Source: Raillietiella orientalis
Taxonomy: Eukaryota
Reading direction: 5' to 3'
Length of the DNA stretch: 64,000 nucleotides
Assembly (NCBI GenBank): GCA_036172245.1
Contig: JAYWIR010000044.1
Span: 558,001 to 622,000 of the forward strand
The notes beneath the pieces are model-generated. The model did no database searches, had not been told where the DNA came from, and saw only the letters and a program-made list of their open reading frames with translations. This document shows, one piece after another, positions 34,755 to 35,446 of this stretch. Made by a program: the position numbers and the translations under genes. Each line of letters opens with the position of its first letter. Position 1 is the first letter of the stretch.

Positions 34755-34976
34755 TGCGTTGTGGGAACTCTTTCCTAAGGGAAAGGACAGGAAAGCAAGC
34801 ATCGTGGTAAAGACAGTCCTTTCCCTCAGGAAAGAGTTCCTACAACGCAATCGCAACGAAATCGCTTTGGGAAAAGACCTGCGCCGGCAAGAAAGGCAAA
34901 ATAAGGAAAGCAAGCATCATGGTAAAGGCATATTTTGCCATTCTTGCCGGCGCAGTTCTTTTCCCAAAGTGATTTC
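34755..34976. repeat. Two adjacent long inverted repeats (34-bp and 46-bp arms) sharing a 27-nt loop
   Basis: Arms 34755-34788/34816-34849 (2 mismatches) and 34858-34903/34931-34976 (3 mismatches). Loops aggaaagcaagcatcgtggtaaagaca and aggaaagcaagcatcatggtaaaggca. Confidence 0.95.
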
Positions 34977-35309
34977 ACCACTGTGCATTCCCGACGGCTC
35001 GCGAGGCCTCGAAGGCAAGCCAGTTGTTTCTGAGGATAATCCTTCGATTCTGCATTTGATCCGTCGCCGCGCGCGTGCGCGCATCATGATTGCGCACGGG
35101 TGTCCGTCGTTCTTCCATTTCTCTATCCCATCTCCCCCGCCTACACCGCTTTATCGCTTTGCAGCCTACTTTCTTCCCTTGGCTGCCCTGATTGGTCATT
35201 CGAAAGCTTCAGGGACGATGTCCGATTCTGATTGGTCAGTTTGAATTTCAGGACGAGCCATAGGCCGGAGCTTTCTGGAAAAGACGCTTCCATGTATGAA
35301 CTGTAGGAA

Positions 35310-35446
35310 CGCCCCATTGTCGGCAAAATGCCATTGTGGTAAAAAATCCATTGTCGGAGACACCTTATTGTTGCAAACAGTGCATTGTGGGAAACATTCA
35401 TTGTTGAAGAAACATTCCTCTACGGAAATTCACCCTTGTCGGGAAG
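35310..35446. repeat. Degenerate 17-bp tandem repeat (about 8 units, cattgtnggaaa-like)
   Basis: (c/t)attgt cores at 35315, 35332, 35349, 35366, 35383 and 35399, with a degenerate unit near 35434. Confidence 0.85.

What the first reader, a model, noticed from the sequence alone, without database searches (positions are those of the whole stretch)
34755..35446. Twin long hairpins with different stems but a shared 27-nt loop, next to a 17-bp repeat array
Seen: two hairpins 8 nt apart. Within each hairpin the arms are nearly perfect complements (32/34 and 43/46) and the two loops are 25/27 identical, yet the two stems differ strongly from each other. The stems loosely resemble units of the 17-bp array at 35310-35446 (cgttgtgggaa, cggcaa), and two ctgattggtca motifs lie between (35188, 35228). 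Inference: simple duplication would make stems and loops diverge equally. The constant-loop/variable-stem pattern therefore implies arm-to-arm homogenisation (template switching or conversion) or a cassette-like hairpin-RNA scaffold (endogenous shRNA/siRNA-like). A foldback-type transposon built from 17-bp subunits is the more conservative explanation.
Basis: partly seen in the sequence, partly recalled or inferred. Interest (0 to 1): 0.7.

Follow-up and report, generated by a model that had tools for sequence, protein, structure and literature searches.

The report
Twin young hairpins sharing one loop
Two neighbouring, almost perfect DNA hairpins with the same 27-base loop but unrelated stems are real, and are most likely recent copying errors in non-coding animal DNA, not a jumping gene or a known RNA gene; their function, if any, could not be tested.

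Summary
Hairpin 1 is 34755-34849 (arms 32/34). Hairpin 2 is 34858-34976 (arms 43/46). They lie 8 nt apart, their 27-nt loops are 25/27 identical, and their stems are alike only at chance level. Both strands fold far better than shuffles (z about -14).

The block is unique in the 64-kb window. It has no terminal inverted repeats or target-site duplication, no inverted partner of the 17-bp array, and no Rfam match above threshold. The foldback-transposon reading is therefore not supported.

The window is otherwise about 25-fold enriched in near-perfect short palindromes. Two of them show template-switch signatures. Arm-to-arm divergence (5/80) and loop-to-loop divergence (2/27) are equal, which fits one young, probably neutral event.

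Best reading (about 0.5): a complex template-switch or fold-back duplication in promoter-proximal non-coding DNA of an unidentified animal.

The shared loop, whose boundaries coincide exactly with the stem ends, remains unexplained. This keeps a hairpin-RNA reading open.

No genome, sequencing runs or relatives were available, so copy number, conservation and expression are untested.

The parts
34755..34788 (.). Hairpin 1, left arm (A), 34 nt
   Evidence: pair I2, 94% complementary; mismatches at 34763 and 34777
34789..34815 (.). Hairpin 1 loop (L, copy 1), 27 nt
   Evidence: family D1
34816..34849 (.). Hairpin 1, right arm (A'), 34 nt
   Evidence: pair I2
34843..34865 (.). 11-bp tandem duplication (CAACGCAATCG / CAACGAAATCG). 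It spans the end of hairpin 1, the 8-nt spacer (34850-34857) and the start of hairpin 2.
   Evidence: TRF: period 11, 2.1 copies, 91% matches; spacer read
34858..34903 (.). Hairpin 2, left arm (B), 46 nt
   Evidence: pair I1, 93% complementary; mismatches at 34864, 34878 and 34894
34904..34930 (.). Hairpin 2 loop (L, copy 2), 27 nt; 25/27 identical to copy 1, in the same orientation
34931..34976 (.). Hairpin 2, right arm (B'), 46 nt
   Evidence: pair I1
35188..35238 (.). Two exact CTGATTGGTCA motifs 40 bp apart (35188-35198, 35228-35238). Their reverse complement, TGACCAATCAG, fits the CCAAT-box (NF-Y) consensus as I recall it. I infer a promoter element; this was not tested.
   Evidence: 2 exact copies, plus 1 one-mismatch copy at 3187; the consensus is recalled, not taken from a call
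35297..35449 (+). Degenerate 17-bp tandem array, about 9 units (consensus CCATTGTCGGAAACACT), with 6 in-phase ATTGT cores. It is a neighbour of the hairpins; a link to them is not shown.

Best explanation
The 222-nt block is a young, probably neutral product of error-prone DNA copying: replication template switching, or fold-back (snap-back) synthesis during break repair. It lies in non-coding DNA of an unidentified animal, about 210-250 bp from a putative CCAAT-box promoter.

Its anatomy is A-L-[A'-s-B]-L-B'. An 88-nt middle segment (34+8+46) is flanked by two direct copies of the 27-nt L. Outside each L sits the reverse complement of the part of the middle segment that adjoins that L.

Each inverted copy was made in one step, so the arms were born perfect. 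They have since picked up ordinary substitutions. The stems differ because they copy different parts of the middle segment. The loops agree because L is a direct repeat made in, or just before, the same burst of switching.

What is shown: the anatomy, its uniqueness in the window, equal divergence of all three repeat pairs, and the window-wide excess of such palindromes. What is inferred: the mechanism, a single event, and neutrality.

If the block is transcribed, each hairpin would be a ready-made Dicer/Drosha-type substrate, that is, raw material for a new small-RNA gene. Nothing here shows that it is used.
For: 1. All three repeat pairs look equally old. The arms differ at 2/34 and 3/46 positions (5/80 together) and the loops at 2/27 (Fisher p = 1.0).

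2. The seven differences look like undirected decay. Five are transitions, two of them at CpG sites. Two are transversions that break pairing on both strands. G-U wobbles number 2 of 5 on the + strand and 1 of 5 on the - strand, so neither strand is favoured as an RNA.

3. The window is a palindrome-rich setting. It has 10 hairpins with a stem of at least 14 nt, at least 90% pairing and a loop of at most 60 nt. The mean in 40 locally composition-matched simulations is 0.4 (sd 0.54). Six have stems of at least 18 nt, against none in the simulations.

4. There are two independent local examples of the proposed process. At 58299-58352 there is a direct-inverted-direct micro-triplication that forms two abutting hairpins. 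A perfect palindrome with 25-nt arms at 41740-41791 sits exactly where a 136-bp, 94.9% duplicate (39863-39998 / 41784-41919) loses homology.

5. The 11-bp tandem repeat crosses the end of A', the spacer and the start of B. This suggests that A'-s-B is the original contiguous sequence and that A and B' are the copies.

6. There are no signs of a gene or a mobile element. No Rfam family reaches its gathering score anywhere in the window. Relaxed Rfam hits are generic miRNA-hairpin models far below threshold; the best is 44 bits against a cut-off of 135. No Pfam domain was found in 0 of 145, 0 of 116 and 0 of 78 open frames; the only hit, in 1 of 10 frames, is the distant ATP synthase gene. No other copy of any part of 34400-35800 lies in the window.

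7. Published work reports that one template-switch event can create perfect base pairing for a whole hairpin, and that such events seeded new primate miRNA genes. I saw the abstracts and introductions of PMC10710096 and PMC8794818. IR-arm homogenisation and expansion are described in PMC8604942 and PMC13100816, of which I saw only the search listing with the start of the abstracts.
Against: 1. The direct repeat L stops exactly at the stem boundaries on all four sides. Random switch points around a pre-existing repeat would not be expected to do that. A structure-aware process, or selection on a loop, explains it better.

2. I could not derive A-L-A'-s-B-L-B' from one simple four-point template switch. 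At least three switches or two events are needed, so a single event is a hypothesis fitted to seven substitutions.

3. The two arms fill 80 of the 88 nt between the loops without overlapping. That suggests a closed 'dumbbell' (M-L-M'-L) opened at one point. Independent fold-backs do not predict this.

4. No outgroup or ancestral state was available, which is what template-switch inference normally rests on.

5. The excess of palindromes in the window shows the process is common here. It does not show that this locus arose that way.

6. Neutrality is not shown; expression and conservation are untested.
Confidence: 0.5

Rival explanations
1. A hairpin-RNA locus: a young miRNA-like or endo-siRNA (hpRNA-like) pair. 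One transcript through 34755-34976 folds into two long duplexes that Drosha/Dicer-type enzymes cut into small RNAs with two different guide sets. The shared 27-nt loop would be a common processing or protein-binding module.
For: Both strands fold into two very stable hairpins. Hairpin 1 has a stem of 34-36 bp and a loop of 23-27 nt. This fits the reported pri-miRNA preference for a stem of about 35 bp and a loop of at least 10 nt (introduction of PMC10710096). The conserved part coincides exactly with the loops, the pattern expected if a loop is read by a factor. A putative promoter with two CCAAT boxes lies 210-250 bp away and could drive a divergent transcript; this is inference and a recalled consensus. 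In Drosophila simulans, paralogous hpRNA loci of shared descent can carry non-homologous hairpin arms (hp-ODox1 and hp-ODox2; passages of PMC10317233).
Against: No Rfam family is matched. The best relaxed hit is 44 bits against a gathering score of 135, and hits fall on both strands, which shows hairpin shape only. Near-perfect 34- and 46-bp duplexes are atypical of established animal miRNAs (my own knowledge). The mismatches show no strand bias towards G-U wobbles, and two of the five break pairing on both strands. Loop divergence equals arm divergence, so there is no sign of extra constraint on the loop. No sequence homologous to the arms, that is, no candidate target, lies in the window. 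hpRNA arms in Drosophila are typically much longer, for example about 200 bp of target homology.
Confidence: 0.18
2. Two copies of a short mobile or selfish hairpin element: a MITE-like, foldback-like or Helitron-end-like module. The loop would be the conserved core and the arms would be rebuilt at each insertion.
For: Each hairpin alone looks like a tiny element consisting only of TIRs. Tandem arrays often accompany foldback-type elements (passages of PMC4079207), and a 17-bp array lies 320 bp away.
Against: No other copy of the loop or the arms lies in the 64 kb. Neither hairpin has a target-site duplication, and the block as a whole has no TIRs (read; BLAST). The array is on one side only and in one orientation, and no inverted partner array was found upstream of the hairpins; the PWM scan has no site of 8 bits or more between 31977 and 34799. 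No transposase or reverse-transcriptase domain occurs in any open frame of at least 90 aa in the window. Members of known MITE and foldback families share their TIRs, whereas here the arms are unrelated. Exact scans with a 23-nt loop core and with arm cores found nothing in metagenome and viral contig collections; those collections may simply not hold this organism.
Confidence: 0.12
3. A cis-regulatory DNA module. The palindromes (possible cruciforms) and the ATTGT-core array would be clustered binding sites upstream of a promoter with two CCAAT boxes.
For: There are two exact CCAAT-box-like 11-mers 40 bp apart. Six in-phase ATTGT cores lie at 17-bp spacing. A second tandem array with the same core lies at 57992-58078. 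IR expansion by template switching near promoters has been linked to transcription-factor binding in yeast (PMC13100816; search listing with the start of the abstract only).
Against: Arms of 34-46 bp are far longer than any dimeric binding site. No downstream gene could be identified: 0 of 78 short frames in 32.5-38.5 kb hit Pfam. The motif assignments are recalled consensus sequences and were not tested. The similarity between the hairpins and the array is at chance level.
Confidence: 0.1
4. The footprint of a closed 'dumbbell' or circular molecule. This could be hairpin-capped extrachromosomal DNA, or a rod-shaped circular replicon of about 222-230 nt, opened at one point and integrated. A library or assembly artefact with the same topology is an alternative.
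For: The block is exactly a circular permutation of M(88)-L-M'-L, lacking only the complement of the 8-nt spacer. Both termini fall at that same point. Hairpin-capped extrachromosomal intermediates are proposed for inverted amplifications in yeast (PMC10766183; search listing with the start of the abstract only).
Against: That model works at kilobase scale and needs an origin of replication. No hammerhead or other ribozyme or viroid-like Rfam hit was found in 34500-35600 at E<=10. The differences are substitutions only, including CpG transitions, as expected of real evolutionary decay and not of read error. L does not match any sequencing adapter that I can recall; this was not tested. Any two abutting hairpins with equal loops can be redrawn this way.
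Confidence: 0.05

Closest known systems
Template-switch-mutation (TSM) hairpins / quasi-palindrome formation (Mönttinen & Löytynoja, PMC8794818; Mönttinen et al., PMC10710096)
   Same: A reverse-complement copy of the adjacent sequence creates a whole, near-perfect stem at once in non-coding DNA. Stem and loop sizes fall in the range reported as suitable for pri-miRNAs. Other such structures lie in the same window.
   Different: Here two hairpins abut and share one 27-nt loop as a direct repeat with exact boundaries. A single four-point switch does not produce this. No ancestral state is available to prove a TSM.
Inverted triplications / fold-back inversions (ODIRA and hairpin-capped intermediates: PMC10766183, PMC4689423; fold-back inversions: PMC7467729; all seen in the search listing only)
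   Same: The topology is inverted-direct-inverted, with a hairpin-forming junction at each end of the middle copy. As a result, the two junction hairpins use different ends of one segment.
   Different: The scale is 88 nt, not kilobases. The outer copies are partial and together make up just one inverted copy. The two junction loops are identical.
Drosophila hairpin-RNA (hpRNA) endo-siRNA loci (PMC10317233, passages)
   Same: They are near-perfect inverted repeats, sometimes in tandem clusters. Paralogous loci can carry non-homologous arms.
   Different: hpRNAs are defined by Dicer-2-dependent siRNAs and by arm homology to a target gene. Neither could be tested here. The arms here are 34-46 nt, against about 200 bp in the examples I read.
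Foldback transposons (FB, Galileo, Tetris; PMC4079207, passages)
   Same: They have inverted repeats and nearby short tandem repeats.
   Different: Foldback elements carry the tandem repeats inside both long TIRs, have TSDs (8-10 bp in Tetris) and occur in several copies. Here the array is one-sided, there are no TSDs and no second copy, and the arms of the two hairpins are unrelated.
Animal pri-miRNA clusters
   Same: Two stem-loops lie within about 220 nt. Hairpin 1 has a stem of about 35 bp with a loop of more than 10 nt.
   Different: In miRNA paralogues the arms are conserved and the loops drift; here it is the reverse. The stems are almost perfectly paired. No Rfam family is matched.

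Membership tests
Foldback (FB-like) transposon | Long terminal inverted repeats that contain the tandem subrepeats on both sides, in opposite orientation | tested here: not met
   The 17-bp units occur only at 35297-35449, all on the + strand. The PWM scan finds no - strand array upstream; there is no site of 8 bits or more between 31977 and 34799. BLAST finds no inverted match around the block.
Foldback (FB-like) transposon | Target-site duplication flanking the element | tested here: not met
   The flanks, read, are ...GATGGAGA | hairpin 1 | ATCGCAAC | hairpin 2 | ACCACTGT... The only direct repeat is a trivial 2-nt AC around hairpin 2.
Foldback (FB-like) transposon / MITE | Several dispersed copies sharing the same terminal repeats | tested here: inconclusive
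   No second copy lies in the 64-kb window. The two hairpins do not share arms. The genome itself is not held, so genome-wide copy number is unknown.
Template-switch-generated hairpin | The stem is a reverse-complement copy of the immediately adjacent sequence, near-perfect, with no independent origin for the second arm | tested here: met
   Arms are 32/34 and 43/46 complementary and 27 nt apart. The window holds 10 such hairpins, against 0.4 expected.
Template-switch-generated hairpin | The ancestral (outgroup) sequence lacks the inverted copy, and the change is explained by one switch event | not testable with these tools
   No genome or relatives could be reached. By hand, one four-point switch does not generate the whole block.
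Animal pri-miRNA | Stem of about 35 bp with an unstructured apical loop of at least 10 nt (as stated in PMC10710096) | tested here: inconclusive
   Hairpin 1 has a 34-36-bp stem and a 23-27-nt loop, which fits. Hairpin 2 has a 46-48-bp stem, which is too long.
Animal pri-miRNA | Membership of a described miRNA family | tested here: not met
   There are 0 matches at gathering score in the window. The best relaxed hit is MIR8643 at 44.4 bits against a cut-off of 135. Hits fall on both strands and to unrelated families.
Animal pri-miRNA / hpRNA | Dicer/Drosha-dependent small RNAs of about 21-23 nt from the arms | not testable with these tools
hpRNA (endo-siRNA hairpin) | Arms homologous to a target gene or transposon | tested here: inconclusive
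   The arms have no homologue in the 64 kb and no exact match in metagenome or viral contigs. The rest of the genome could not be searched.

The most novel reading that the evidence does not exclude
The two hairpins are working members of a loop-defined hairpin cassette. The 27-nt loop would be the constant module, read by a processing or binding factor or used as the turn-around point of a snap-back polymerase. The stems would be exchangeable 'payload'. This would be a natural shRNA-like scaffold in an animal genome. A variant of this reading is that the block is a unit-length, circularly permuted copy of an 88-bp dumbbell or rod closed by two identical loops.

The exact coincidence of the conserved segment with the loop, and the way the two arms tile the 88-nt interval, are what keep this reading alive.
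Probability: 0.1. Interest if true: 0.75.

Novelty: new variant of a known kind. Interest (0 to 1): 0.3.

Why it matters
If the best reading is right, this is a clean, datable snapshot of how replication or repair errors create ready-made long hairpins, here two at once, next to a promoter. Such hairpins are the proposed raw material for new small-RNA genes. It also flags this animal's GC-rich non-coding DNA as unusually rich in such events.

If instead the loop proves to be a recurring module with ever-different stems across the genome, it would be an undescribed class of structured repeat or natural shRNA scaffold in animals. That would be of much greater interest.

Tried and rejected
Genome and outside collections:
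- Whole-genome search for the loop was not possible; no genome is held for this window.
- Public sequencing runs: none was listed and no RNA holder was listed, so read laying could not be used.
- Earlier findings of this scan: nothing by place or by sequence. A word search gave 61 findings, of which 8 were shown. All 8 concern phage, giant-virus or prokaryote hairpins and have no bearing here.
- Exact scans of public collections gave 0 loci in every case: the loop core (23 nt) in metagenome contigs and viral contigs; a 24-nt core of the hairpin 2 arm in metagenome contigs and viral contigs; a 26-nt core of the hairpin 1 arm in viral contigs. These collections may simply not contain this organism.

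RNA and coding content:
- Rfam: 0 matches at gathering score in the whole window. The relaxed scan gave only sub-threshold generic miRNA or snoRNA shapes. No tRNAs were found.
- Pfam on open frames: only the ATP synthase alpha exon hit. No neighbouring gene or transposase could be named.

Organism:
- The ATP synthase alpha exon is 92% identical to PDB 9b0x. It is at most 93% identical to proteins of many bilaterians: snakes, birds, fish and insects.
- The protein atlas returned only bacterial clusters.
- I therefore call the source an unidentified animal.

Ideas rejected:
- That the stems are built from 17-bp units: not beyond chance.
- H/ACA snoRNA: no H or ACA box in the spacer or tail, by eye.
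- A T-shaped parvovirus-type terminal repeat: no outer palindrome around the pair.
- A Helitron 3' end: no CTRR after either hairpin, by eye.
- A retrozyme or hammerhead circle: no ribozyme hit.
- A single four-point template switch: worked through by hand, it does not yield the block.
- The 205-codon open frame 34627-35241 that runs through the hairpins has no Pfam hit and no early ATG. I treat it as non-coding.

Full report
**The observation**

The region was read directly and analysed with the repeat finder.
- Hairpin 1 has arms 34755-34788 and 34816-34849 (34 nt, 32/34 complementary).
- Hairpin 2 has arms 34858-34903 and 34931-34976 (46 nt, 43/46 complementary).
- Each has exactly 27 nt between its arms. 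The two 27-mers (34789-34815 and 34904-34930) are 25/27 identical and in the same orientation.
- The hairpins are 8 nt apart (ATCGCAAC).

The loop pattern occurs nowhere else in the 64 kb, even with 3 mismatches, and 0 of 100 shuffles gave two matches. Its halves also have no further convincing copies.

Folded as RNA, 34740-34990 gives -141.1 kcal/mol on the + strand and -134.4 on the - strand. The z-scores are -14.1 and -14.8, and 0 of 200 shuffles did as well in either case.

The stems are alike only at chance level. Alignment scores are 22 and 20, against shuffle means of 15.3 and 15.4; 23 and 50 of 500 shuffles reach them. The loops score 48, reached by 0 of 500. So the constant-loop, different-stem pattern is real.

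The 17-bp array exists but is degenerate. TRF gives two rows of period 17 with 75-79% matches. I count nine units in 35297-35449, all on the + strand, with six in-phase ATTGT cores.

The claimed likeness between the stems and the units rests on one 13-nt match at 12/13 (family D2). BLAST at E<=1 finds no hairpin-to-array match. A weight matrix built from the units scores 12.8 bits in loop 1 and 10.1 in the right arm of hairpin 2. Scores in that range occur at many other places in the window; in all, 104 sites reach 8 bits against 56 in shuffles. I treat the likeness as not shown.

The two CTGATTGGTCA motifs are exact. Their reverse complement, TGACCAATCAG, fits the CCAAT-box consensus as I recall it. 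I therefore infer a promoter about 210-250 bp from hairpin 2. This was not tested.

**Context**

No genome is held for the window.

The only recognisable gene is an ATP synthase alpha gene. A 461-codon exon at 13343-14725 (+) is 92% identical to PDB 9b0x. It is at most 93% identical to proteins of many bilaterians. It lies in an AT-rich island with depleted CpG (observed/expected 0.62).

The rest of the window is 50-68% GC. No Pfam domain was found in 0 of 145, 0 of 116 and 0 of 78 open frames. There is no tRNA and no Rfam family at gathering score.

I conclude that this is non-coding nuclear DNA of an animal that I cannot identify.

**What it is not**

- The block has no second copy in the window.
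- Nothing in a self-BLAST of 30-40 kb against the window flanks it as a terminal inverted repeat.
- There are no target-site duplications (flanks read).
- The array has no inverted partner upstream of the hairpins.
- No transposase or reverse transcriptase occurs in any frame of at least 90 aa.

Foldback elements carry their tandem repeats inside both TIRs, have TSDs and occur in several copies (passages of PMC4079207). Those features were tested and not met, apart from genome-wide copy number, which could not be tested.

A relaxed Rfam scan gives only generic miRNA or snoRNA hairpin shapes. They fall on both strands and far below threshold; the best is 44.4 bits against 135. No ribozyme appears.

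**Anatomy and age**

Call the arms A/A' and B/B', the loop L and the spacer s. The block then reads A-L-A'-s-B-L-B'.

The 88 nt between the loops are exactly A'(34) + s(8) + B(46). The block is therefore a middle segment M = A'-s-B flanked by direct copies of L. Outside each L lies the reverse complement of the part of M next to that L.

An 11-bp tandem repeat (CAACGCAATCG / CAACGAAATCG) runs from the end of A' through s into B. This suggests that M is the original contiguous sequence and that A and B' are the copies.

The arms differ at 2/34 and 3/46 positions and the loops at 2/27, which are indistinguishable rates (Fisher p = 1.0). Of the seven differences:
- five are transitions, two of them at CpG sites;
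- two are transversions that break pairing on both strands;
- G-U wobbles number 2 of 5 on the + strand and 1 of 5 on the - strand.

Everything looks equally young and undirected.

**Why I favour a copying error**

My own hairpin census looked for stems of at least 14 nt, at least 90% pairing and loops of at most 60 nt. It finds 10 in the window, against a mean of 0.4 (sd 0.54) in 40 local first-order Markov simulations. Six have stems of at least 18 nt, against none in the simulations.

Two of these hairpins carry a visible history.
- At 58299-58352 there is a direct-inverted-direct micro-triplication that forms two abutting hairpins.
- The perfect 25-nt-arm palindrome at 41740-41791 sits exactly where a 136-bp, 94.9% duplicate of 39863-39998 stops.

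Both are what template switching or fold-back priming leaves behind. Published work reports that one template switch can create a whole perfect stem, and that such events seeded new miRNA genes (abstracts and introductions of PMC8794818 and PMC10710096).

So the most economical reading is a complex template-switch or snap-back event, or a short burst of them, that made A, B' and the second L at about the same time.

**What this reading does not explain**

- The direct repeat ends exactly at the stem boundaries on all four sides.
- The arms tile the interval between the loops.
- By hand, a single four-point switch does not produce the block; at least three switches are needed.
- The block can equally be drawn as a circularly permuted 'dumbbell' M-L-M'-L that lacks only the complement of s.

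These points keep three other readings open:
- a structure-aware origin, for example copying limited to the single-stranded loop of an existing hairpin;
- a functional hairpin RNA with a loop that is read by a factor;
- a loop-defined repeat family.

Hairpin 1 fits the 35-bp stem and at-least-10-nt loop preference quoted for pri-miRNAs. In Drosophila simulans, related hpRNA loci can carry non-homologous arms. However, there is no expression, target or conservation evidence here.

**Limits**

Copy number in the genome, orthologues and expression, which are the three decisive tests, were out of reach.

All motif assignments are recalled consensus sequences: the CCAAT box (NF-Y), the SOX-like ATTGT core, and an NRF1-like GC palindrome near 35074-35098.

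Supplements of the cited papers were not consulted.

**Verdict**

The foldback-transposon reading is not supported. The hairpin-RNA scaffold reading is neither excluded nor tested (about 0.1-0.2). Interest is modest unless a genome-wide search shows that the loop recurs with other stems.

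Noticed in passing
window 58299-58352: A direct-inverted-direct micro-triplication. The direct copies are 58299-58321 and 58330-58352 (91% identical), and the inverted copy is 58320-58337. Together they form two abutting hairpins, a textbook template-switch footprint.
   Followed up: partly
window 39863-39998 and 41740-41919: A 136-bp duplicate at 94.9% identity. In the second copy, a perfect palindrome with 25-nt arms (41740-41791) sits exactly at the point where homology ends. 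There is also an 11-bp indel and further small direct repeats just upstream.
   Followed up: partly
whole window: About 25-fold excess of near-perfect short-range hairpins: 10 observed against 0.4 simulated. They include perfect 18-nt arms at 20518-20557 and 17/18 arms at 49612-49652.
   Followed up: partly
window 57992-58078 (related units from about 57930): A 33-bp tandem array (2.6 copies, 96% matches) whose units carry CAACAATGCG. This is the same ATTGT/ACAAT core as the 17-bp array at 35297-35449. It may be a recurrent binding-site motif.
   Followed up: no
window about 12500-15000: A mitochondrial ATP synthase alpha gene with few introns. One 461-codon exon is at 13343-14725, and a small upstream exon lies near 13190-13317. 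The gene sits in an AT-rich (37-42% GC) island with depleted CpG (observed/expected 0.62), inside otherwise GC-rich DNA (50-68%) that has no Pfam hits.
   Followed up: partly
window 35074-35098: A small GC-rich quasi-palindrome, CGTGCGC-GCATCATGATT-GCGCACG. Its centre shares GCATCATG with loop 2. An 8-mer match at this range is about what chance gives. Read only.
   Followed up: no
window 50859-52661 (-): A 601-codon stop-free frame in 62-68% GC DNA. Its translation is Arg/Gly/Ala/Pro-rich and has no Pfam hit. It is most likely a by-product of base composition and not a gene.
   Followed up: partly
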